The notes: a model not told the origin generated them from the letters alone. Shown: positions 1-35,303, numbered from the stretch's first letter. The stretch: 36,299 nucleotides of DNA from a virus (IMGVR_UViG_2657245570_000017:1-36299); one strand, 5' to 3'. Numbers and translations are program-made.

Positions 1-1005
1 TTAATCCCCCGTGGACACTGCGTGGACACTCACGCCACCTTTCAGCGGATTAAGGGCCACCGCATCCTGCAGGTAATCCGGTGCAAAATGTGCATATGCC
101 ATTGTTTGCTGAATGGTTGCGTGGCCAAGAATCTTCTGAAGCGCAATAATGTTTCCTCCGTTCATCACAAAATGGCTGGCGAACGTATGCCGCAGCACAT
201 GTGCAGCCTGGCCTTTTGGTAAATCGGGCTTAACTCTTTTCAGCGCCAAGCAGAATTCCCGGTACTTCACCTCAAACAAGCCGCCTGTTTCTCTGGTTTT
301 GATCGCCTCACAAACTGCCTGCGAAATTGGCACTGTTCTCTTTCGGCCATTTTTGGTTTCAAGAAACGTCACTCGGTTATGAACTATCTGTTCACCACGG
401 AGCTTACAGGCTTCACTCCAGCGCGCTCCTGTGCTTAAACACAAAAGAGCAACACGCCAGTAATCGCCCTCCAATGTATCGAGCAATAACGCAACTTCCT
501 TCTGTGACAGGAACGCCATTTCTCGTGGAGATACATAAAGAATAGAAATTCCCCTTACCGGATGTTCTGCATCCCAAAGACCTATTTTTTTCAGCACGGT
601 AAACATTCCGGATAACCGATTCATGTACCTGTTAGCAGATGACGGTTTCAATCCATCAGCTATCTTTTGAGAACGCCACGCGATAATTTTCAGCTTATCA
701 AGATCCACAGCCTGCATATCAGCGCCAAGCTCATTGATTATGTTGCGCAGTTGTTTTCGGTCTTCTTCCGCCTTACGCCTGTGTTGACCGTGATACATCC
801 ACCACAACTCAAGCAAATCATTTAGCGTTCGGCGATCACGGTAGCCCTGTATATATTCCCGCTTTTCAGCGTTCGCCATGATGTAGCGTTCAGTGGCCAC
901 CGCTACCGATTTTTTGTCAAATACCTTACGCACGCGCTTTCCCTTGCGTCCGTTCGGCCTGATGTCCAGCAAATAACGACCATCTTCGAGCTTCTTAATT
1001 GACAT
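1..1005 (-). CDS. int: Tyrosine integrase, P2 Int-like
   Basis: 334 aa from ATG at 1005 with GGAGGG RBS; N-terminal MSIKKLEDGRY and C-terminal HTFASHF, ILGH, YAHF motifs match the P2 Int family as recalled; stop codon at 1-3. Confidence 0.9.
   Translation of the reverse strand: MSIKKLEDGRYLLDIRPNGRKGKRVRKVFDKKSVAVATERYIMANAEKREYIQGYRDRRTLNDLLELWWMYHGQHRRKAEEDRKQLRNIINELGADMQAVDLDKLKIIAWRSQKIADGLKPSSANRYMNRLSGMFTVLKKIGLWDAEHPVRGISILYVSPREMAFLSQKEVALLLDTLEGDYWRVALLCLSTGARWSEACKLRGEQIVHNRVTFLETKNGRKRTVPISQAVCEAIKTRETGGLFEVKYREFCLALKRVKPDLPKGQAAHVLRHTFASHFVMNGGNIIALQKILGHATIQQTMAYAHFAPDYLQDAVALNPLKGGVSVHAVSTGD
11..28. repeat. Putative attL core (direct repeat with 35119-35136)
   Basis: GTGGACACTGCGTGGACA here versus GTGGTCACTGCGTGGACA at the right end, 17 of 18 identical; lies in the last codons of int. 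Confidence 0.5.
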
Positions 1006-1101
1006 TGCGAAGCCCTCCAATGAACCGCTCTACAATTTCTCCAGCCTCTTTCCAGCAATAATCAGACCAGACAAAGAGCAGGTCTAACCAGTTTTCTGGC
1101 C

Positions 1102-4457: not shown

Positions 4458-4489
4458 GAAACCAGAACATGCACACACAAAAAAACCGC

Positions 4490-4518
4490 TTGCCATGCCG
4501 CAATCAGTCAGGTTACAT
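4490..4518 (+). promoter_or_regulatory. Candidate sigma70 promoter
   Basis: TTGCCA(4490-4495)-17 nt-TTACAT(4513-4518). Confidence 0.35.
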
Positions 4519-4524
4519 TTCCGC

Positions 4525-4599
4525 TGCACCTCATAAAACGGGTGCCGGGTTTCGCAGCCTGCTGACTAGCAAAGCGCACAACCGCGCCAGCGGTTTTTT
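4525..4599 (+). ncRNA. Candidate small structured RNA (about 75 nt)
   Basis: Between the promoter-like motif and a hairpin plus T7 run (stem 4580-4593, T-run 4593-4599); no RBS-led ORF in this interval. Confidence 0.3.
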
Positions 4600-4779
4600 T
4601 GTGCGTACTGTATTGCCACGTCTTTTTCGCACACGAATTATGGCGGGGCGTACGGGGCCGACTTCGGTCGGGCCGGGTTCTTTGCTAGCCGGTACTGCGA
4701 ACCTCGTACGTCTCGCCACCCACAGTTTCGCAGCTCTGGATGGTGAGTTTTCAAAACTTACTAGCAAAGAGGCCACACC

Positions 4780-5010
4780 ATGGCAAACCGCAAACAGCAC
4801 CGCGCTATCGCGGAGCGTCGTCACATCCAGACTGAAATCGATCGCAGACTCACCCGCGCTGCACACATCGCCTTTATCATGCAATCCAACACATTGCACA
4901 GACTCAACAGCACTATTTCAGCCGACTACTGCGCCGCTGTATTCAGCTATCTGGCGGAAGACCTCCTGTCTCTTCAGGATCTCATCCAGCAGCAAAACAA
5001 ACCCCATTAA
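4780..5010 (+). CDS. Hypothetical basic protein
   Basis: 76 aa; strong RBS AAAGAGG 7 nt upstream of ATG at 4780. Confidence 0.5.
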   Translation: MANRKQHRAIAERRHIQTEIDRRLTRAAHIAFIMQSNTLHRLNSTISADYCAAVFSYLAEDLLSLQDLIQQQNKPH

Positions 5011-5083
5011 TTCCTGTTCCGGGCCTTTCCTGCACCTTGCGGCGGGAGGCCTTCGCACATCTGTAGTAAAGAGGATTGCCGCA

Positions 5084-5449
5084 ATGATTCTCGCCAACGA
5101 CTTTCTTGAATACCTGCTCAACACAGAGCGTGATCTTGCCGTTCGCGTGCGTGAACGTTATGACATGTACCTGAAATCCCTGCCTGTACCGCAGCTCGCT
5201 GACGGAAAATTTGTTATTGATGGTCGCTACATGATTGACAGCCACGAGGGGAATTACAGGCTTTACCGCATTGAAGGCGGCACCCCGTCCGTTATTGGCA
5301 TTTACCAGCGCCCATCCTCTGCGATCGTCGATGTGATTGCCGACAGCATCCGCATCACACACCACCATGCCGACACAGAAGACACTGTGCTGGAGATTCA
5401 GCGGCTGGCTGCCGTTTGCCGTGACACTCTGAATGGTATGACGAAGTAA
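5084..5449 (+). CDS. Hypothetical protein upstream of A
   Basis: 121 aa from ATG at 5084 (AAGAGG RBS); the 326-aa track ORF upstream of this ATG lacks coding signals. Confidence 0.55.
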   Translation: MILANDFLEYLLNTERDLAVRVRERYDMYLKSLPVPQLADGKFVIDGRYMIDSHEGNYRLYRIEGGTPSVIGIYQRPSSAIVDVIADSIRITHHHADTEDTVLEIQRLAAVCRDTLNGMTK

Positions 5450-5455
5450 ATCAGT

Positions 5456-8278
5456 ATGACGACAGAGTACATCAGGGACTGGCAACAACCGCGCCACGCA
5501 GTAGGACGTGAAGGAACGGAGATCCCCGCACCTGAATCCGCGCTTTCCTCATGGCTGGATGCCTACCGGGTAGAGAACGAGCGCCGCCAGGAAATGGCTG
5601 ATGCGGCGTTCTCCGCCACACCGCTGGGCAACCTGATTAATAAAAGCCTGGACGCACAGGAAAAACAGGACAAAACCATCACACTGGCAGGAGACGCCAG
5701 AAAACAGGCACGCGGCGCGGTGGATGAAGCCATGGCCTCGCTGCGCCTGCTGCCGTCCTATCTGCGCGATCCGCTTATTCGCCACCTCTCCTTCCTGCGC
5801 AAAAAACAGGAAGCCGATCGCCGGAAAGGCAAAAAGAGCTGGCAGGCGGAACGCTATGCACGCGGAACCCTGCGCAAAATATTCGAACGTCTGGACCGCA
5901 CCGATCACCGCTGGCTGACACCGGGTTATCGCTCCCTTGCCGGACGCGAACGCCTGGACGATTTGCTTTACCTGCCGCAGCTCAACAAACACCAGATACA
6001 GACGCTGGCCACCATGACGGCGGCGATGTTCAGCAGCACCTTCGAAAAACTCTGCGATGGCTTTGGCGCGACCGATGGCGAGCTGACCATGGATGTAACG
6101 CTGAAGGCGTATCAGATGCTGGCCCGCATGGCGTTACACCTGCACGCCATGCCTCCACATTATGACGCACTGACAACAGACAAAGACCGGAGGAACGAAC
6201 CAGACACGGAGCTGCTGCCGGGCGCAATCCTTCGCCTGACCTGTGCGCAATGGTGGAAACGCAAACTGTGGCTGTTACGTTGCGAGTGGCGGGAAGAACA
6301 ACTCCGCGCCGCCTGTCTGGTTTCCAGAAAAACATCGCCCTATCTGAGCCAGGACGCGTTAAGCGAGTTTCGCGCACAGCGCGAGAAAACACGCGATTTC
6401 CTGAAAAGTTTCATGCTGGAAAATGAAGACGGGTTCACGATTGATCTCGAGACGGTGTATTACGCGGGAGTAAGTAACCCGGTTCACCGTAAGGCAGAAA
6501 TGATGGCCACCATGAAGGGACTGGAACTTCTGGCCGAAGCCCGTGGCGACAGAGCGGTGTTTCTGACTGTCACCTGCCCGTCAAAATATCACGCAACAAC
6601 GGAGAACGGTCATCCGAATCCCAAATGGAACGGGGCCACAATGCGCAACTCCAGCGATTACCTGGTTAACACGTTTTTTGCGGCGGTCCGCAAAAAACTG
6701 AACCGCGACGGTCTTCGCTGGTATGGCATCCGCACGGTGGAGCCTCACCATGACGGTACCGTACACTGGCATATGATGGTCTTTGCACATCCGGAAGAAA
6801 TCGACAGCATCGTGGCCATCACCCGCGATATTGCCATTCAGGAAGACCGCCACGAGCTGGGCAATGATATTACTCCGCGCTTTAAGGCGGAGTATGTCGA
6901 CGGCTCAAAAGGCACACCAACCAGCTATATCGCGACCTACATTGGAAAAAACCTGGACAGCCGCGCCGTGGATGGCATTGACCCGAAAACGGGCAAACCA
7001 CGCGTTGACCACGAAACCGGAAAATCAATGGCCGAGAGCGTGGAGCGCGCCATCGGCTGGGCGCGCCTTCACCGGGTCCGCCAGTTCCAGTTCTTTGGCA
7101 TCCCCTCCCGTCAGGTGTGGCGTGAACTGCGCCGCCTTGCCAGCCAGATGGCACGCAACCCGGAAGGCCCGCAACGACTGAAGGACGACGCAATGGATGC
7201 GGTACTCGCTGCCGCTGATGCCGGGTGTTTTGCCTCCTACATTGAAAAACAGGGTGGCGTACTTGTTCCACGCAAAGACTACCTGATTCGCACCGCCTAC
7301 GACCTCGCAGATGAGCTGAACGATTACGGCGAACAGAGTGTACAGATTTACGGGATCTGGTCGCCGCTCATCGGGGAGTCTTCCCGCGTGTGCACGCACC
7401 CGGATAACTGGAAGCTGGTAAGACGTAAACCGGAAGCGGAAGACAGCGCCCGCGAAAATGGTTTTGACCTTCAGGGCGGCCCTGCCGCCCCTTGGACTCG
7501 TGGCAATAACTGTCCCCGTGTACAGGAAACAGACAACAACGGGACAGAACAGCCGGAAGAACGGCCAGCACCGTGGCCGCAGCTTCCTGACGGCGTTGAC
7601 GTGAACGAATGGGTGCGCTCACTGAAACGGCACGAACGCCGGGCGCTGATGCGTTCGCTGCGTGACAAACAGGCAAAAAACAGCAGTGATGAAATGCAGA
7701 ACTGGACACAGAGCCGCAAACAGCCACAGCCTTTGCCTGATAACCACGAATTACTCGCTAAAGAATGGCGGGAGTCTGCTGAATCTCTCGGCCTGCATAT
7801 CGGTGAACAGCAGATGCAGCACCTGTTACGGGGCGGCAGTCTGTACGTTGACGGCAGCATCATTGCACCGCAGGGATTTGAAATTGTACGCAAACCGGAT
7901 ACCCGACCGGACAGCCGGATCACGCAGCTCTGGCAGCGCCTGAGCCGTAACCACGGCGTAAGCAGCACGGAGATCCGCCATAACCCGGTCGCCAGCTATC
8001 TGGAACAGCTGGGGGCATCAGACCCCGAAGCCGCCGCACGCCTGGCATCCACACTTCAGCAAGACCAGAACACCATGAAAACACCCGTTACCGTGCTTTC
8101 TGACATGCTGCGCGCCATCCGCGACGCAGAGCACGCACAGAGAATCAGTGAAACCACTGAACGCGCCCGCCGCAAAGCAGACCTGCTGCGGGGTGGCCTG
8201 ACCATTGGAAACAAAAAACAGACAGAAACGGGATTCACAAATCCCGTAAATGAGCAAAAAACGCGCCGCGATATATGA
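5456..8278 (+). CDS. A: Replication initiation endonuclease, P2 gpA-like, with long C-terminal extension
   Basis: 940 aa; HUH-type motif VHWHMMVF and paired catalytic tyrosines YIATYIGK; about 180-250 aa longer than the P2 or 186 A proteins as recalled. Confidence 0.85.
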   Translation: MTTEYIRDWQQPRHAVGREGTEIPAPESALSSWLDAYRVENERRQEMADAAFSATPLGNLINKSLDAQEKQDKTITLAGDARKQARGAVDEAMASLRLLPSYLRDPLIRHLSFLRKKQEADRRKGKKSWQAERYARGTLRKIFERLDRTDHRWLTPGYRSLAGRERLDDLLYLPQLNKHQIQTLATMTAAMFSSTFEKLCDGFGATDGELTMDVTLKAYQMLARMALHLHAMPPHYDALTTDKDRRNEPDTELLPGAILRLTCAQWWKRKLWLLRCEWREEQLRAACLVSRKTSPYLSQDALSEFRAQREKTRDFLKSFMLENEDGFTIDLETVYYAGVSNPVHRKAEMMATMKGLELLAEARGDRAVFLTVTCPSKYHATTENGHPNPKWNGATMRNSSDYLVNTFFAAVRKKLNRDGLRWYGIRTVEPHHDGTVHWHMMVFAHPEEIDSIVAITRDIAIQEDRHELGNDITPRFKAEYVDGSKGTPTSYIATYIGKNLDSRAVDGIDPKTGKPRVDHETGKSMAESVERAIGWARLHRVRQFQFFGIPSRQVWRELRRLASQMARNPEGPQRLKDDAMDAVLAAADAGCFASYIEKQGGVLVPRKDYLIRTAYDLADELNDYGEQSVQIYGIWSPLIGESSRVCTHPDNWKLVRRKPEAEDSARENGFDLQGGPAAPWTRGNNCPRVQETDNNGTEQPEERPAPWPQLPDGVDVNEWVRSLKRHERRALMRSLRDKQAKNSSDEMQNWTQSRKQPQPLPDNHELLAKEWRESAESLGLHIGEQQMQHLLRGGSLYVDGSIIAPQGFEIVRKPDTRPDSRITQLWQRLSRNHGVSSTEIRHNPVASYLEQLGASDPEAAARLASTLQQDQNTMKTPVTVLSDMLRAIRDAEHAQRISETTERARRKADLLRGGLTIGNKKQTETGFTNPVNEQKTRRDI
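8228..8247. promoter_or_regulatory. Palindrome 1, ACGGGATT-N4-AATCCCGT
   Basis: Perfect 8-bp inverted arms; lies in the 3' end of A, 127 bp upstream of the parM-like start. Confidence 0.5.
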
Positions 8279-8301
8279 AGCGCGCATAAAACAGGCAAAA
8301 A

Positions 8302-8321
8302 CGGGATTTCAGAATCCCGTA
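8302..8321. promoter_or_regulatory. Palindrome 2, ACGGGATT-N4-AATCCCGT
   Basis: Second copy 74 bp downstream of the first, 34 bp upstream of the parM-like start, overlapping a promoter-like region. Confidence 0.5.
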
Positions 8322-8354
8322 AACGATTAATTAATCAACATAAGGAAAAGCGAC

Positions 8355-9314
8355 ATGAAAATTTGTATCGATGACGGCTCCACCAACATCAAGCTGGCAT
8401 GGACTGAGAACGGCGAACGCCGCAACGCCATCAGCCCGAACAGCTTCAAGTCGGAATGGTCTGCGCCGTTCGGTGGCACGCAGCCCGCGAACTACATGCT
8501 TGATGGCGTGCGCTATGGTTTTGATCCGGTCAGCGATCGCTTTGTCCAGACGACCGACACGCAATACCAGTACAGCGATGTGAATGTCATTGCCATTCAT
8601 CACGCGCTGGTCAAATCAGGCATCACACCACAGGAAGTGGATGTGGTTGTCACCCTGCCACTGAGCGAATATTTCGACACAAACGCACAGCCGGACATGG
8701 CCAACATCAACCGCAAAAAAGCAAACGTCATGCGCCCGGTGGCGTACCAGAACGGAAAAGCATTCACTATCCGTAACGTACGGGTTATGCCTGAATCCAT
8801 TCCGGCTGGTTTTAAAGCACTGGCTGACATGAGTCCGTTTGAATCCCTGCTGATTGTGGATTTAGGCGGAACCACGCTGGATGTGGCAAAGGTTCAGGGA
8901 CAACTGGCAGGTATCAGCCAGGTGTTTTGCGATCCACACGTAGGCGTTTCCCTGATGGCCGATGCCGTACTGTCGGTGATGGCCACTAACGGTATGCGCA
9001 CCAGTCACCACATCGCCAATACCATTATCGAACATCGCCATGATGAAGCCTGGCTGCGCCAGCACATCCACAATGACGCGCATTACGCCAGCCTGATGGC
9101 GGTTATTCGTGAAAAGGAAGAAACACTGAAACAACGCGTGATCCGCGCGCTGGCGGTTTTTTCGGGTTACGGGCGGGTGATGGTTGTCGGTGGCGGGGCG
9201 GAGATTGTGGCACCCGCTATCCGCGAAGCCTGCGGAGTTAATGCGACTTTCATCGCGGACGGGGTGCCACAATTTGCTCTGGTTAATGGGCTGTACGCAA
9301 TGAACAAGGAGTAA
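8355..9314 (+). CDS. parM: Actin-like segregation ATPase, ParM/StbA family
   Basis: 319 aa; MKICIDDGSTNIKLAW, ISPNSFK, YSDVNVIAIHHAL, MPESIPAG, LIVDLGGTTLD, VVGGGAE and LVNGLY are collinear with R1 ParM as recalled; AAGGA RBS. Confidence 0.8.
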   Translation: MKICIDDGSTNIKLAWTENGERRNAISPNSFKSEWSAPFGGTQPANYMLDGVRYGFDPVSDRFVQTTDTQYQYSDVNVIAIHHALVKSGITPQEVDVVVTLPLSEYFDTNAQPDMANINRKKANVMRPVAYQNGKAFTIRNVRVMPESIPAGFKALADMSPFESLLIVDLGGTTLDVAKVQGQLAGISQVFCDPHVGVSLMADAVLSVMATNGMRTSHHIANTIIEHRHDEAWLRQHIHNDAHYASLMAVIREKEETLKQRVIRALAVFSGYGRVMVVGGGAEIVAPAIREACGVNATFIADGVPQFALVNGLYAMNKE

Positions 9315-9318
9315 ACCA

Positions 9319-9630
9319 ATGACGACACCAACCAGAAGAATAAGTTTCTATCTGAAGCCAGCTGCCGTCAAGAACGAAGGAGAAGCATGCGCCTGGCTGG
9401 ACAGTCTTACACCAGAAGCCCGCAAAAGCGGCCAACGCGTGGCTTTTCTGGCCGGGCTGGCACTTCTGAAGACGAATCCGGCAGAGGCTTACCGACTGGC
9501 CGCATGGGCTGATGATGAGATGTTACCTGTGACACAAATCAGCTCAAAAAAGTTTGAAGCACAGTCTGCACCAGTGGCTAAGATAACCAGCCAGATGGCT
9601 GGGAATATCCGGGCGTTATTTCCTGAGTAA
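9319..9630 (+). CDS. ParR/StbB-like centromere-binding adaptor (putative)
   Basis: 103 aa, 4 bp after the parM-like gene, AAGGAG RBS; N-terminal region ISFYLKP...RVAFLAGLALLK resembles ParR; sits at the parR position. Confidence 0.5.
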   Translation: MTTPTRRISFYLKPAAVKNEGEACAWLDSLTPEARKSGQRVAFLAGLALLKTNPAEAYRLAAWADDEMLPVTQISSKKFEAQSAPVAKITSQMAGNIRALFPE

Positions 9631-9758
9631 AAGCATCTGCGCGAAAAATGCTCACGTTTATAGAGACAGTATCATTCCATTTGGCACACTTACTTCAATA
9701 ATCGATCTGTTAAACAAATAGATTGTCTATTATCTATCGATTAAAACGATCAATTATC

Positions 9759-9786
9759 TTGACAGTAATGTGCCTTTTTGTAAGAT
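9759..9786 (+). promoter_or_regulatory. Candidate sigma70 promoter with GATC in the -10
   Basis: TTGACA(9759-9764)-16 nt-TAAGAT(9781-9786); GATC at 9784-9787 overlaps the -10; two more GATC upstream at 9704 and 9748. Confidence 0.5.
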
Positions 9787-9835
9787 CGTTCGCATTGTGA
9801 GCGACAAGATAATTGCGCGGCATTGTCCATGCAAA

Positions 9836-9865
9836 ACGCCCCAATAGCAGCAACTATTGGGGCGT
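9836..9865. other. Perfect 12-bp stem hairpin in leader
   Basis: ACGCCCCAATAG-CAGCAA-CTATTGGGGCGT; a short T-run follows only on the minus strand. Confidence 0.6.
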
Positions 9866-9994
9866 AAAACTCGGTCGGACTCACTTAACCTGATATGCGT
9901 GCCTTCCGAAGTAAATCAAAATGTGCGTCGTATATTTTATTGCTTACACGCACCTCTGTAAAGGCACGCATATTTTTCCTATGAGGTAAATAAA

Positions 9995-10264
9995 GTGCGG
10001 GCTAAAACAGGTATTTGCAAGAACCCTCATCGTTATAATCCAACATTTCTGTCTCTCCCTGAATATCAAGGACAAGAAGGTCGGCACAAATGCGCTGCCT
10101 GTGCTTTTGAGCTAGGCATAAAAGATGCGCTTGAAGGACGCGCTATGGCTCAGAATGATTTAGTTTTAGCTAACATTCCGTTTAGCCAGGCTGGAACTGT
10201 AAGGCACAGAGATGCCTATGAAGCATATGTTCGTGGTTGGCGATTAATACACAGCAACAATTGA
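9995..10264 (+). CDS. Orphan hypothetical protein (89 aa), moron-like
   Basis: GTG start with GAGG RBS 8 nt upstream; own promoter and terminator; AT-rich context; no family recognised. Confidence 0.55.
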   Translation: MRAKTGICKNPHRYNPTFLSLPEYQGQEGRHKCAACAFELGIKDALEGRAMAQNDLVLANIPFSQAGTVRHRDAYEAYVRGWRLIHSNN

Positions 10265-10273
10265 TACTTTTGA

Positions 10274-10297
10274 AGCGCCGATAAGGCGCTTTTTTTG
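10274..10297 (+). terminator. Rho-independent terminator
   Basis: AGCGCC-GATAA-GGCGCT followed by T6. Confidence 0.75.
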
Positions 10298-10379
10298 TTT
10301 GCACGATAGTGCACAAGTTTGCACAATTTTTTTGAACGACTTTTTGTACTTCCGGCCCGCGTGGTGGCTGGATCCGTCA

Positions 10380-10620
10380 AGGATCCGTACGTGCACAAAA
10401 AAACGCGTTTTTTCTGCGCGCAGGTGACGGGGGAACAGCCCGCGTTTCAGGGGGTAAATAGCATCCCCTGAACGATGTCGCAGCAACACAACAGAATGGC
10501 TGTATTTCTCACGCTGAGCGTGAAAAAGACGTGAGGGCTTTTGATTTGATGGGGTGGCAGATAAGGCCGTCAAAATCGCACTGAGGCGGCGAGAACATGC
10601 AGTCAGCGCGATGGGATTGC
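10380..10620. other. Putative cos packaging region
   Basis: Non-coding interval 3' of the portal gene, as in P2; palindrome AAAAAAACGCGTTTTTT (10396-10412); GGATCCGT direct repeat; G-rich GGTGACGGGGGAACAGCC (10423-10440) and GAGGCGGCGAG (about 10590) loosely resemble the P2/186 cohesive-end sequence as recalled. Confidence 0.35.
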
Positions 10621-10698
10621 GTAAGAGCCTGACCGTCGATGATGGCAATAAGCTGGAAGACGTCGTGAAATTATCTGATTGATACAGGAGCTGGAGAG

Positions 10699-10723
10699 TC
10701 GGGGCATAAATTTTTTATGCCCC
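10699..10723. other. Hairpin downstream of the portal gene
   Basis: GGGGCATA-loop-TATGCCCC 8-bp stem; no clean T-run on either strand. Confidence 0.4.
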
Positions 10724-10750
10724 GGCGAAGCAGCAGACAAGCGAAGCGCG

Positions 10751-33750: not shown

Positions 33751-33891
33751 ATGTCGCAAAAATCGCTTACGGCCATCACGTTCTGCGTGACGGTAATCCT
33801 CATCATCTGGATGCTGCACGGTTCGCTGTGTGAAATACGGATGAGCTTCTGGGGAGCGGAGTTTGCGGCGTTCTTACAGTGTAAGCAGTAA
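33751..33891 (+). CDS. Hok/Gef-family type I toxin (46 aa)
   Basis: AAGGAG RBS; hydrophobic helix ITFCVTVILIIWML followed by the family signature SLCEIR and AEFAAF (compare Hok KSLCEIR...EVAAF as recalled). Confidence 0.7.
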   Translation: MSQKSLTAITFCVTVILIIWMLHGSLCEIRMSFWGAEFAAFLQCKQ

Positions 33892-33978
33892 GGAAACCGC
33901 GACGGGGGAGCAATCCCCCGTCAATCGGTTGCTAAGGTTGGCTGAAGTGGCACCCTATCTCTCAGACATGAACAACAA

Positions 33979-34011
33979 ACCCGCAGCGTAAAAACTGCGG
34001 GTTTTCTTTTT
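33979..34011 (+). terminator. Rho-independent terminator of the hok-like transcript
   Basis: ACCCGCAG-CGTAAAAA-CTGCGGGT followed by TTTCTTTTT. Confidence 0.7.
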
Positions 34012-34054
34012 GCTACCCTCACAAATGAGGGCACCATACATAAGCAATAGGCAT

Positions 34055-34100
34055 AACAGATCGATGCAATAAATCCGATCGATAAAAACGATCGATTTGT
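34055..34100. promoter_or_regulatory. Cluster of three GATC (Dam) sites upstream of com-like gene
   Basis: GATC at 34059, 34077 and 34090, each within CGATCGAT-like context. Confidence 0.5.
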
Positions 34101-34140
34101 TATCATATCGGCAGCAGTAACCACACAAGAGGTGCCGCAA

Positions 34141-34338
34141 ATGACGCAAAATGTACGATGCAAAAATTGCAACAAACTACTTGCCCGCGCCTCATTTCAC
34201 TACATTGAAATAAAATGTCCGCGCTGCAAAACACTTAACCAGATAACGAGAGCCATCGAGCACCCCACACACATGAGGAGTTATGACCGTGGGGATCGCA
34301 ATCCGGCACCAACCAGCACATACACCGGAACACACTAA
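34141..34338 (+). CDS. com: Com-like zinc-finger translational activator
   Basis: 65 aa from ATG at 34141 (AAGAGG RBS); CKNCNKLL...IEIKCPRCK matches Mu Com CKNCNKLL...IEIRCPRCK as recalled; overlaps the downstream gene start. Confidence 0.75.
   Translation: MTQNVRCKNCNKLLARASFHYIEIKCPRCKTLNQITRAIEHPTHMRSYDRGDRNPAPTSTYTGTH
34263..34294 (+). promoter_or_regulatory. Stem sequestering the methyltransferase RBS and start codon
   Basis: CCCCAC (34263-34268) pairs with GTGGGG (34289-34294), enclosing GAGGAG and ATG 34283. Confidence 0.5.
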
Positions 34339-35074
34339 GGTTTATCAGACTGACAATGCCACGCTCTGTCGTGGGAATGCACTGGAAATATTGCCGCTGA
34401 TTGAGCCAGAAAGTATTGATGCCTTAATCACTGACCCGCCTTACAGTTCGGGCGCGACACACAAGGCCGGACGCACCAACCAGGGCAGCCACGCAAAATA
34501 TCTGAACGGCGAGAACCTTCATCGCTTTGATGGGTTTGCGGGTGAAAACATGGATGCCCGTTCGTGGGCTTACTGGACACAATTATGGATGGCACAGGCA
34601 CACCGCGCAGTCAGGCCGGGCGGTTATGCCCTGGTATTTACTGACTGGCGACAACTGCCAGCTTTAACCGATGCGTTTCAGGCCAGCGGTTTTACATGGC
34701 GTGGAATCATTGCGTGGAACAAAGGAAGGGGGTCACGAACACCCCATACGGGGTATTTCCGGCATCAGTGCGAATACATCGTCTGGGGCAGTAAAGGCCA
34801 TTTAGGTAAATCGCCTTCGGGACCGTTCGACGGCTGCATGACGTTCCCGGTTATCCCATCAAAGAAAATGCACCCGACCGGAAAACCAGAAGAACTTATG
34901 GCAGAACTGGTCAGGACTGCGAATAGTGGTGGAACAGTCCTTGATCCTTTTATGGGATCGGGAACAACGGGTGTTGCAGCACTAAAAGCAGGACGCAAAT
35001 TTATTGGTATAGAAACCAGTGATCATTATTTTGATGTAGCAACACAACGGCTCAAAACGGCGATCGAACCATAA
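34283..35074 (+). CDS. DNA methyltransferase (N6-adenine/N4-cytosine, beta class)
   Basis: 263 aa; DPPY motif (ITDPPYSS) precedes the AdoMet motif DPFMGSGTTG; alternative GTG start at 34289. Confidence 0.85.
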   Translation: MTVGIAIRHQPAHTPEHTKVYQTDNATLCRGNALEILPLIEPESIDALITDPPYSSGATHKAGRTNQGSHAKYLNGENLHRFDGFAGENMDARSWAYWTQLWMAQAHRAVRPGGYALVFTDWRQLPALTDAFQASGFTWRGIIAWNKGRGSRTPHTGYFRHQCEYIVWGSKGHLGKSPSGPFDGCMTFPVIPSKKMHPTGKPEELMAELVRTANSGGTVLDPFMGSGTTGVAALKAGRKFIGIETSDHYFDVATQRLKTAIEP

Positions 35075-35136: not shown

Positions 35137-35303
35137 TACGCTGATACAAATCCTTTTATATCAAGAAATTAAATCTTTGTTTTTTTCATCAACAAGGATT
35201 TTCACGTTTGTGTTACCTGTATGAGACGAGAGTTAACCGGACAAGTGTGCCATAATCTCGCGGCCAGGCATACTTGCGAAGATTTCAGGTATAAGGATAC
35301 GTA

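What the first reader, a model, noticed from the sequence alone, without database searches (positions are those of the whole stretch)
8228..9630. Plasmid-type ParM/ParR actin partition cassette inside an integrative P2-like prophage
Seen: a 319-aa protein collinear with the R1 plasmid ParM/StbA actin-like ATPase (DDGSTNIKL, ISPNSFK, YSDVNV..HHAL, MPESIPAG, DLGGTTLD, GGGAE, LVNG.Y), then 4 bp later a 103-aa protein at the parR position, preceded by two perfect palindromes ACGGGATT-N4-AATCCCGT 74 bp apart. Established: type II partition loci are centromere plus ParM plus ParR; the post-A region of P2-like phages (tin/old locus) is variable cargo. Inference: the phage may carry a filament-based DNA positioning or segregation function, or the cassette has another role; none of this is shown here.
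Basis: partly seen in the sequence, partly recalled or inferred. Interest (0 to 1): 0.8.

Follow-up and report, generated by a model that had tools for sequence, protein, structure and literature searches.

The report
ParM/ParR partition cassette in P88-like prophage
An integrated P2-family (P88-like) E. coli prophage carries an intact, strongly conserved plasmid-type ParM/ParR DNA-segregation module; this is real but already annotated and mentioned in the literature, and why an integrating phage keeps it has not been tested.

Summary
ORF 8355-9314 is a full-length R1-type ParM (Pfam 7e-82 and 6e-69; PDB 1mwk 1e-92). ORF 9319-9630 is a StbB/ParR adaptor (PF10784, 1e-23). Two identical-arm palindromes lie just upstream, 73 bp apart start to start.

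The host element is a P88-like (Xuanwuvirus) prophage integrated between pdxB and flk. The cassette is not new. PGAP and PHROGs already name both genes. It occurs in 1,304 of 5,426 complete E. coli genomes. Rousset et al. [quoted passage not shown] I found no experimental test.

What this work adds:
- The module is fixed in one phage lineage and always sits next to a lineage-specific 940-aa replication protein A. It is not shuffled cargo.
- It is under strong purifying selection: dN/dS 0.09 for parM, 0.08 for the ParR core and 0.02 for the ParR tail.
- The putative centromere is minimal (four half-sites, unlike R1's ten iterons) and has no recognisable promoter of its own.
- Free circular copies are almost never seen.

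Most likely it segregates or positions extrachromosomal phage circles transiently, after infection or induction, as in the ICE R391 srpMRC and prophage CGP3 AlpAC systems.

The parts
5456..8278 (+). Gene A: rolling-circle replication initiator, 940 aa. It lies directly upstream of and co-oriented with parM. Its last codons contain palindrome 1. Residues ~797-940 form a C-terminal extension specific to this lineage.
   Evidence: Pfam Phage_GPA 3.9e-130. Phages whose A is >=86% identical are exactly the phages with this parMR; all other A proteins are <=43% identical and align only to residues 9-796. The last 300 codons have dN/dS 0.73.
8212..8253 (.). Repeat unit 1 of the putative centromere parC. 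It contains palindrome 1 (ACGGGATT-N4-AATCCCGT, 8228-8247) preceded by phased A-tracts.
   Evidence: 42-nt direct repeat with 73-bp spacing. Arms are conserved and the spacer is variable across 57 unique sequences. A-tract periodicity of 10.5 bp is reached by 0 of 2000 shuffles.
8262..8284 (.). GC-rich inverted repeat (CGCGC...GCGCG) between the two palindromes, spanning the stop codon of gene A. Role unknown.
   Evidence: It pairs in the folds of both strands. One variant shows a change on both arms that keeps the pairing (CGTGC...GCACG in L089/L079).
8285..8326 (.). Repeat unit 2 of the putative parC. It contains palindrome 2 (8301-8320) and ends 34 nt before the parM start codon.
   Evidence: No sigma-70 consensus promoter and no plus-strand terminator was found between A and parM.
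8355..9314 (+). parM: actin-fold ATPase, 319 aa. An AGGA ribosome-binding site lies about 8 nt upstream.
   Evidence: Pfam StbA_N 6.9e-82 and ParM C-terminal 6.2e-69. PDB 1mwk 1.3e-92 over residues 2-316. phrog_691 'partition protein'. dN/dS 0.088 over 59 unique alleles. At most ~52% identical to any plasmid ParM in PLSDB.
9319..9630 (+). parR: centromere-binding adaptor, 103 aa. It has a conserved N-terminal core (1-66), a hypervariable linker (67-88) and a conserved C-terminal tail (89-103, ...NIRALFPE).
   Evidence: PF10784 9.8e-24 and phrog_2515. Profile hit to the StbB structure 2jd3, E 0.005. 26% identical to IncFII StbB with the C-terminal tails aligned. dN/dS 0.077 (core), 0.78 (linker) and 0.024 (tail). 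AF2 monomer: helices 20-29, 32-52, 54-61 and 86-100, linker disordered, pLDDT 59.

Best explanation
The cassette is a functional type II (R1-type ParMRC) DNA-segregation module that belongs to the backbone of P88-like phages.

Proposed mechanism:
1. ParR dimers bind, through their N-terminal ribbon-helix-helix core, to the two 20-bp palindromes. These provide four half-sites on a helically phased, A-tract-rich stretch at 8212-8326 (inferred).
2. ParR's conserved C-terminal helix captures the ends of ATP-ParM filaments (inferred from homology).
3. Filament growth between two ParR/parC complexes pushes two phage DNA circles apart (inferred from the R1 system).

There is no recognisable promoter or terminator between gene A and parM. 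The genes are therefore most likely read through from the early lytic operon. They would be made only after infection or induction, when the phage genome is an extrachromosomal circle copied by A-dependent rolling-circle replication.

The module would then spread these circles through the cell or to both daughters. The benefit could be more lysogens per infection, less loss of the phage after excision, or more efficient replication and packaging.

What is shown: the identity of both proteins, their intactness, purifying selection, the conserved repeats, and the integrated state. What is inferred: ParR binding to the palindromes, the timing of expression, and the benefit to the phage.
For: - Identity.
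- Functional constraint: both genes are intact in 82 of 85 complete loci. dN/dS is 0.088 for parM, 0.077 for the ParR core and 0.024 for the ParR tail, against 0.78 for the ParR linker and 0.73 for the adjacent 3' end of A.
- ParR-site match: the ParR segment R6-P14 is invariant in homologues down to 43% identity, and the palindrome arms are nearly invariant across all ParR types.
- Putative centromere: identical-arm palindromes sit exactly where type II centromeres lie, and A-tracts are phased at 10.5 bp.
- Expression: no promoter or plus-strand terminator between A and parM.
- Lineage linkage: strict linkage to the lineage's replication initiator.
- Transient rather than stable role: 1450 chromosomal against 2 plasmid places, no unsplit attP in 432 genomes of this att type, and one free circle among 72,556 plasmid records.
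- Precedents in integrative elements: ICE R391 srpMRC has four 13-bp repeats and an induction-only promoter, and reduces loss of R391, whose excised form is a replicating circle (PMC4489591). Prophage CGP3 AlpAC is needed for efficient replication (PMC4446434).
Against: - No experiment exists for this cassette. ParR binding, filament formation and any phenotype are all untested.
- Two palindromes are far fewer sites than the ten iterons of R1 parC, and it is unclear whether four half-sites can build a filament-capturing complex.
- The absence of a promoter rests on a simple consensus scan, so a weak or non-canonical promoter active in lysogens is not excluded.
- On the minus strand each palindrome looks like an intrinsic terminator, a hairpin followed by a T-run.
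- The P2-type lytic cycle is short (my background knowledge, not tested here), so segregation across a cell division may be irrelevant during lytic growth.
- No co-variation between ParR type and palindrome sequence could be found to tie the two together.
- The ParR monomer model has low confidence, pLDDT 59.
Confidence: 0.5

Rival explanations
1. Facultative plasmid prophage. The cassette lets P88-like phages persist for many generations as low-copy plasmids, the possibility raised by Rousset et al. 2022, for example when the attachment site is missing or occupied.
For: - Rousset et al. suggest this (PMC9122126).
- One closed 34.5-kb circular record deposited as a plasmid is a complete P88-like phage with the same att type as the window (NZ_CP148288.1).
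- Phages 520873 and 503458 carry CP-series genome accessions named after their E. coli strains, which suggests, but does not show, that they were deposited as separate replicons of strain assemblies.
- The only other phage record with an R1-type ParM is the true phage-plasmid D6.
- A Hok/Gef gene is present.
Against: - In complete E. coli genomes the cassette lies at 1450 chromosomal places against 2 plasmid places.
- 432 genomes carry this att type and none has an unsplit attP.
- Only 1 of 72,556 PLSDB plasmids is a free circle; the other six hits are large replicons with an integrated copy, or fragments.
- Circular contigs can simply be induced phage DNA.
- No plasmid-type replicon was seen, only the rolling-circle initiator A in the early lytic operon.
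- hok is not specific to this lifestyle. It is also found in about 180 lambdoid Stx-converting phage records (which I take to be integrative, from background knowledge) and in only about half of the parMR phages.
Confidence: 0.12
2. The module works in the lysogen and not on phage circles. ParR, with or without ParM, would be expressed from the integrated prophage and act on other DNA: as an incompatibility or exclusion determinant against related phages or plasmids, as a defence system of the P2 hotspot, or as a regulator.
For: - The locus lies in the A-to-portal interval, which is a known hotspot of anti-phage systems in P2-like phages (PMC9122126).
- ParR's linker and helices diversify into at least three types.
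- Up to three copies occur per genome.
Against: - No PADLOC defence model matches either protein.
- The cassette is constant in the lineage while the real hotspot cargo varies downstream of it.
- Plasmid ParMs are at most ~52% identical, and plasmid ParRs are too diverged for tblastn to find, so cross-reaction with plasmid centromeres is unlikely.
- The full ParM ATPase and the ParR tail are under strong purifying selection, which a mere DNA-binding regulator would not need.
- No promoter was detected for expression in the lysogen.
Confidence: 0.12
3. The proteins are a real ParM/ParR pair, but the two palindromes are not the centromere. They would be RNA hairpins, for example minus-strand terminators that shield the early operon from antisense transcription, or mRNA-stabilising or processing structures. 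The true ParR sites would then be the A-rich direct repeats or lie elsewhere.
For: - On the minus strand both palindromes, and the GC hairpin between them, are each followed by a T-run and are called terminator-like.
- The region folds far better than shuffles on both strands, z about -5.
- Several arm variants keep pairing through G-U on the minus strand.
- R1-type centromeres are made of direct 11-bp iterons, not palindromes.
Against: - Independent terminators do not normally share identical stems, but two copies of one protein-binding site do.
- No compensatory double changes were seen within either palindrome, and spacers vary more than arms.
- There is no minus-strand gene within 1.3 kb downstream in the window whose transcript would need stopping here.
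- The position directly upstream of parM, and the four repeats bound in pairs, match srpC of R391.
Confidence: 0.2
4. Non-functional relic. The cassette was captured from a plasmid and is simply carried along.
For: Three of 85 loci carry inactivating mutations (L065, L066, L087).
Against: - dN/dS is 0.02-0.09 in the functional parts, while the linker and the neighbouring A 3' end are near 0.75.
- 82 of 85 loci are intact.
- No close plasmid donor exists (at most ~52% identity), so the association is old.
Confidence: 0.03

Closest known systems
ParMRC (StbA/StbB/parC) of IncFII plasmids R1/NR1: type II, actin-type plasmid partition
   Same: - Gene order is centromere-parM-parR.
- ParM aligns over its full length with all nucleotide-binding motifs and is 46.5% identical to an IncFII StbA.
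- ParR belongs to the same Pfam family, PF10784, with the same N-terminal core and an aligned C-terminal tail.
   Different: - It sits in an integrated phage, not on a plasmid.
- ParR is only 26% identical and lacks most of the linker (103 aa against 117 aa in the IncFII StbB).
- The upstream region has two 20-bp palindromes (four half-sites) in place of two clusters of 11-bp direct iterons.
- No promoter was detected inside it.
- The phage ParMs form a separate clade, at least ~95% identical to each other and at most ~52% to any plasmid ParM.
srpMRC of SXT/R391 integrative conjugative elements (Carraro et al. 2015, PMC4489591)
   Same: - It is a ParM-type partition locus in an element that normally lives integrated.
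- The centromere is small: four repeats, direct and inverted, bound in pairs.
- It is expressed only when the element is activated.
- It works together with a rolling-circle (HUH-type) initiator that replicates the excised circle, and alongside a toxin-antitoxin system.
   Different: - SrpM and SrpR are only distantly related to R1 ParM/ParR, and SrpR has no recognisable domain. The phage proteins are clear R1-family members.
- The host element is a conjugative element, not a virus.
- Function is demonstrated for srpMRC and untested here.
AlpAC/alpS of Corynebacterium glutamicum prophage CGP3 (Donovan et al. 2015, PMC4446434)
   Same: It is an actin-like ATPase plus a DNA-binding adaptor encoded by an integrated prophage. 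The adaptor binds upstream of its own operon. The genes are induced early after excision, and the system acts on circular phage DNA.
   Different: It is a different actin-like family with a different gene order, in a Gram-positive host. Its measured role is efficient replication rather than inheritance. No sequence relationship was tested here.
StbA-type partition locus of phage-plasmid D6 (P1-like, 91 kb)
   Same: It is the only other phage record in the collection with an R1-type ParM (47.8% identity).
   Different: From background knowledge, not checked here, D6 is maintained as a plasmid prophage, so its partition locus has the ordinary plasmid role. P88-like phages integrate.

Membership tests
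Type II (R1-type ParMRC) partition system | Actin-fold ATPase ParM with both ParM domains and the nucleotide-binding motifs | tested here: met
   StbA_N 6.9e-82 (1-157) and ParM C-terminal domain 6.2e-69 (159-316). 1mwk 1.3e-92 with DDGSTNIK, MPESIPAG, DLGGTTLD and GGGAE aligned.
Type II (R1-type ParMRC) partition system | Small adaptor gene immediately downstream of parM that is a ParR/StbB homologue | tested here: met
   4-nt gap. PF10784 9.8e-24, cut-off 25 bits, score 83. Profile top hit in the PDB is the StbB structure 2jd3, E 0.0047.
Type II (R1-type ParMRC) partition system | Ribbon-helix-helix DNA-binding fold at the ParR N-terminus | tested here: inconclusive
   The AF2 monomer (pLDDT 59) gives helices 20-29 and 32-52 after an unstructured 1-19, where the strand of a dimeric RHH would be. 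No strand was predicted. The fold is supported only through homology to 2jd3.
Type II (R1-type ParMRC) partition system | ParR C-terminal tail that binds ParM | tested here: inconclusive
   The tail aligns with the IncFII StbB C-terminus, and N96 is invariant. dN/dS is 0.024. A helix is predicted at 86-100. Binding itself cannot be tested with these tools.
Type II (R1-type ParMRC) partition system | Centromere of multiple repeats directly upstream of parM | tested here: inconclusive
   Two conserved identical-arm palindromes within 42-nt repeats, with phased A-tracts. The R1 pattern of 2 x 5 direct 11-bp iterons is absent. ParR binding was not tested.
Type II (R1-type ParMRC) partition system | Autoregulated promoter inside the centromere | tested here: not met
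   No sigma-70 consensus site between 8100 and 8355. This was a simple consensus scan, so a weak promoter is not excluded.
Type II (R1-type ParMRC) partition system | Stabilises a low-copy extrachromosomal replicon | not testable with these tools
   This needs a plasmid-stabilisation assay.
Phage-plasmid (prophage maintained as a plasmid) | Lysogenic state is extrachromosomal, with a plasmid-type replicon | tested here: not met
   The window prophage is integrated. 1450 chromosomal against 2 plasmid places. 0 of 432 genomes with an unsplit attP. 1 free circle among 72,556 plasmids. No plasmid replicon was seen.
Anti-phage defence system of the P2 hotspot | Match to a known or candidate defence protein model; variable presence at the hotspot | tested here: not met
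   No PADLOC hit at E <= 1. The cassette is constant in the lineage, and the variable cargo lies downstream. Defence activity itself was not tested.
P88-like phages (genus Xuanwuvirus, Peduoviridae) | Near-identity of the replication and partition region to phage P88 and its relatives, with P2-type gene order | tested here: met
   93-97% DNA identity over 8200-9700 to P88, 520873, P884B11 and Shae_phiSM. A protein 86-98% identical. Gene order int, cox, A, portal, terminase, capsid, as in the annotated identical locus.

The most novel reading that the evidence does not exclude
P88-like phages, present in about a quarter of E. coli genomes, have a short-lived but actively segregated 'plasmid phase'. 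After infection or excision, A-dependent rolling-circle copies are pushed into both daughter cells by a minimal four-half-site ParMRC segrosome expressed from the early operon. One infection or excision event would then seed several lysogens, or the element would survive cell division before it reintegrates. That would be a viral counterpart of the ICE R391 strategy, and a natural minimal type II centromere.
Probability: 0.3. Interest if true: 0.6.

Novelty: already known. Interest (0 to 1): 0.35.

Why it matters
The presence of the cassette is not news. The unanswered question is still a good and easily testable one: why does an integrating virus found in roughly a quarter of E. coli genomes keep a complete actin-type DNA-segregation machine under strong purifying selection?

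An answer would show whether temperate phages, like ICEs, pass through an actively partitioned extrachromosomal stage. That stage would affect lysogenisation efficiency, prophage stability and induction yield.

The very small putative centromere (two palindromes) could also be a useful minimal model for how ParR/parC complexes capture ParM filaments. For annotation, the result warns that 'plasmid segregation protein ParM' in an E. coli chromosome usually marks a P88-like prophage and not an integrated plasmid.

Tried and rejected
- **Co-variation between ParR type and palindrome sequence.** At least three ParR types exist (53-54% identical to the window's), but all share the N-terminal strand and the same palindromes, so the test has no power.
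- **Compensatory changes within the palindromes** to separate an RNA hairpin from a protein site. Only single transitions were seen, at about 95% overall identity, which is uninformative.
- **Structure prediction of ParR for an RHH fold.** The monomer model is weak (pLDDT 59), so I did not run a fold search on it and used a profile search of the PDB instead.
- **Hok as support for a plasmid-like maintenance kit.** Rejected, because the same hok locus is in about 180 lambdoid Stx-converting phage records and in only about half of the parMR phages.
- **Defence-system reading.** No PADLOC hit.
- **Recent capture from a plasmid.** Rejected, because the best plasmid ParM is ~52% identical and plasmid ParRs are not detectable by tblastn.
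- **Genome-contig scan with ParM.** It returned only three species representatives (E. albertii, Salmonella, and a contig labelled Vagococcus), because single-protein patterns find only close relatives.
- **Literature searches** for experimental work on this cassette found none.
- **Integrated copy in the strain with the circular 'plasmid' copy.** I did not establish whether it also carries one.

Full report
**Observation**

The window contains, on the plus strand, a 319-aa ORF (8355..9314). Four nucleotides later there is a 103-aa ORF (9319..9630). Upstream lie two palindromes with identical 8-nt arms, ACGGGATT-N4-AATCCCGT, at 8228-8247 and 8301-8320.

These palindromes are the cores of a longer 42-nt direct repeat (8212-8253 and 8285-8326, 81% identical). 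The first one lies within the last codons of gene A, whose stop is at 8276-8278. The 36.3-kb window has only five perfect 8-N4-8 palindromes, and these two share their arms.

**Identity of the proteins**

The 319-aa protein matches the two Pfam ParM domains end to end (StbA_N 6.9e-82, ParM C-terminal domain 6.2e-69). It also matches the solved R1 ParM (1mwk) at 1.3e-92 over residues 2-316, with all nucleotide-binding motifs aligned.

The 103-aa protein matches PF10784, the StbB/ParR family, at 9.8e-24. It has no solved relative by single-sequence search. A profile of 20 homologues has the StbB structure 2jd3 as its best PDB hit (E 0.0047, residues 9-74).

Aligned with a genuine IncFII StbB, it is 26% identical. 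It keeps the N-terminal core, and its extreme C-terminus (..GNIRALFPE) aligns with the StbB C-terminal tail (..KKNAMKLIN). It lacks most of the linker.

An AlphaFold monomer model is weak (pLDDT 59) but shows the expected layout. Residues 1-19 are unstructured, which is where the strand of a dimeric ribbon-helix-helix would form. Helices lie at 20-29, 32-52 and 54-61, the linker at 62-85 is disordered, and there is a C-terminal helix at 86-100.

**Context**

The element is a P2-family prophage of the P88 group (genus Xuanwuvirus).
- The 8200-9700 stretch is 93-97% identical to phages P88, 520873, P884B11, 503458, PhiR44_2, Chuche and Citrobacter phage Shae_phiSM.
- The window starts at the stop codon of a tyrosine integrase (1..1020, minus strand).
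- A 100% identical cassette in E. coli 2014C-3075 sits in a prophage integrated next to pdxB.
- The window's last ORF looks like host flk. This is my reading of the sequence, and no family hit confirms it.
- Comparison with a circular copy places the att core near 35183-35202.

**Prior knowledge**

- RefSeq annotation already names both genes 'plasmid segregation protein ParM' and 'plasmid partitioning/stability family protein'. This holds in phage P88 and in the chromosomes of 1,304 of 5,426 complete E. coli genomes.
- PHROGs has 'partition protein' families for both proteins, and phrog_2515 is exactly 103 positions long.
- Rousset et al. [quoted passage not shown]
- The PhiSM paper lists the gene as a 'fitness' factor without comment (PMC6456863).
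- The P88 paper does not mention it.
- I found no experimental study of it.

The finding is therefore already known as an observation and as a speculation, and untested as a function.

**What the analysis adds**

1. **The cassette is a lineage-fixed module, not shuffled cargo.**
   - In 50,697 phage records, the 14 that carry this parMR are exactly the 14 whose replication protein A is at least 86% identical to the window's 940-aa A.
   - Every other P2-family A protein is at most 43% identical and aligns only to residues 9-796.
   - The C-terminal extension of A that overlaps the first palindrome is therefore also lineage-specific.
   - The interval from parR to the portal gene is the truly variable part: 993 to 2854 nt in more than 20 size classes among 75 loci.

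2. **The phage ParMs form their own clade.** They are at least ~95% identical to each other and at most ~52% identical to any ParM in 72,556 plasmids. Plasmid ParRs are too diverged to be found by tblastn at all. The only other phage record with an R1-type ParM is D6 (47.8% identity), which I recall is a P1-like phage-plasmid.

3. **The module is under strong purifying selection.**
   - Both genes are intact in 82 of 85 complete loci. Three are degraded and four are cut by contig ends.
   - dN/dS is 0.088 for parM, 0.077 for ParR residues 1-66 and 0.024 for the ParR tail 89-103, despite high synonymous divergence in the tail.
   - The ParR linker (0.78) and the last 300 codons of gene A (0.73) are nearly unconstrained.
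   - The extreme constraint on the tail argues that the ParR-ParM contact is kept.

4. **The putative centromere is conserved and minimal.**
   - ParR residues R6-P14 are invariant in homologues down to 43% identity.
   - The palindrome arms are nearly invariant in 57 unique upstream sequences. Their spacers are the most variable positions, and the whole 8212-8354 stretch varies less than the adjacent A coding sequence.
   - A-tracts in this stretch are phased at 10.5 bp, a value reached by 0 of 2000 shuffles.
   - The architecture differs from R1-type parC, which in an IncFII plasmid is two clusters of direct 11-bp iterons. Here there are only four half-sites.
   - That is not disqualifying. 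[quoted passage not shown]

5. **Expression probably depends on the early operon.** A consensus scan finds no sigma-70 promoter and no plus-strand terminator between gene A and parM. The genes are co-oriented with A, and both have good ribosome-binding sites. The simplest reading is read-through from the early lytic operon, so expression would follow infection or induction. This again parallels srpMR, which depends on an induction-specific promoter. It is an inference from a simple scan, not a demonstration.

6. **A stable plasmid state is rare at best.**
   - In complete E. coli genomes the cassette lies at 1450 chromosomal and 2 plasmid places.
   - In PLSDB only seven records carry it. One of them is a free 34.5-kb circle, pZ1323PEC0009-2, with integrase and the same att type as the window. 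The others include a copy integrated in a 228-kb IncC plasmid, further large replicons, and one degraded 26.8-kb linear fragment.
   - I used the unsplit attP junction of that circle as a probe. 432 genomes have this att type, and none has the junction in one piece. A circle linearised exactly at attP would escape this test.

**Mechanism**

I consider it most likely (about 0.5) that this is a working type II segrosome acting on extrachromosomal phage circles during a transient phase.

In this model ParR binds the palindromes. Its tail captures ParM filaments, and filament growth separates pairs of circles produced by A-dependent rolling-circle replication.

Two experimentally studied integrative elements behave this way.
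- R391 combines a rolling-circle initiator, srpMRC and a toxin-antitoxin system, which together keep the element from being lost at cell division.
- The CGP3 prophage needs its actin-like AlpC and the adaptor AlpA for efficient replication after induction.

I cannot decide from sequence which benefit applies to P88-like phages. The candidates are more lysogens per infection, less loss after excision, or better replication and packaging.

**Rivals**

- **Stable plasmid prophage (0.12).** The distribution data argue against it.
- **A role in the lysogen, such as exclusion, incompatibility or defence (0.12).** The points against are the lack of a PADLOC hit, constancy within the lineage, distance from the plasmid systems, and the lack of a promoter.
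- **The palindromes are RNA hairpins or minus-strand terminators rather than the centromere (0.2).** In favour, each is followed by a T-run on the minus strand. Against, the stems are identical and the position is the right one for a centromere.
- **A decaying relic (0.03).** The selection analysis excludes this.

The Hok/Gef gene near the right end (33751..33891) looked at first like a second plasmid-maintenance function. The same locus is present in about 180 lambdoid Stx-converting phage records and in only about half of the parMR phages, so it gives no specific support.

**Verdict**

The finding is already known from annotation and the literature. The function is untested but readily testable.

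Interest is moderate. A specialist would not be surprised by the presence of the cassette. The questions worth pursuing are its strict fixation next to a lineage-specific replication protein, the strong selection on it, the minimal centromere, and its abundance in E. coli.

Noticed in passing
window 4526-4723 (+), within/upstream of ORF 4469..5449: Rfam gathering-level hits to isrK (4526-4600, 65.5 bits) and C4 antisense RNA (4636-4723, 82.8 bits). They lie at the start of a 326-aa ORF with a weak Ash-family match, inside the early operon of a P2-family phage. This recalls the P1/P7 immI-type antisense control of an antirepressor.
   Followed up: no
window 7850-8278 (3' end of gene A, residues ~797-940): The A protein is 940 aa. 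Its C-terminal extension of about 145 aa exists only in the P88 lineage; other P2-family A proteins stop aligning at residue ~796. The last 300 codons evolve almost neutrally (dN/dS 0.73), yet the final codons carry palindrome 1. The long ORF tail may be kept open mainly by the cis-acting DNA it overlaps.
   Followed up: partly
window 9388-9585 (ParR codons 67-88): The ParR linker is hypervariable (dN/dS 0.78) between a constrained core and tail. At least three ParR types (53-54% identical to the window's) coexist in E. coli and E. albertii, with the same palindromes and nearly identical ParM.
   Followed up: partly
window 9631-10750: Variable cargo between parR and the portal gene.
- A strong promoter-like site at 9759-9786 (TTGACA-16-TAAGAT) is bracketed by an 11-nt inverted repeat (9751-9761 / 9805-9815).
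- A 12-nt perfect inverted repeat lies at 9836-9865.
- An 89-aa ORF at 9995..10264 matches phrog_3941 (unknown function, 6e-49), with no Pfam or PADLOC hit.
- A strong terminator lies at 10272-10292.

Other P88-like phages carry different genes here.
   Followed up: partly
window 33751-35074: A Hok/Gef-family toxin ORF (33751..33891, Pfam 3.7e-7) is followed by a Com-like zinc-ribbon ORF (34132..34338) that overlaps the start of an N6/N4 DNA methyltransferase (34283..35074). This is a Mu com/mom-like arrangement, but with a methylase, at the right prophage end. No Sok RNA reached the Rfam gathering score. The hok locus is shared at ~83% identity with about 180 Stx-converting phage records.
   Followed up: partly
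L088 (NZ_MK439959.1, 40014-52325): A complete-looking P88-like prophage region (A, parM, parR, cargo, portal, terminase) is integrated in a 228-kb conjugative IncC KPC plasmid. Similar copies lie in other large 'plasmid' records, including a 272-kb Salmonella plasmid. In these cases a phage-borne ParMRC rides on a conjugative plasmid.
   Followed up: no
L004 (NZ_JBQPOM010000071.1): A 226-kb contig labelled Vagococcus sp. WN89Y, a Gram-positive organism, carries a ParM 97% identical to the E. coli phage copy, with the same upstream region. It is most likely a contaminating or mislabelled enterobacterial contig.
   Followed up: no
L002 (NZ_CP148288.1, whole record): A closed 34,461-bp circular record deposited as plasmid pZ1323PEC0009-2 is a whole P88-like phage genome with integrase and an intact attP of the same type as the window's prophage. 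Whether the same strain also has an integrated copy was not determined.
   Followed up: partly
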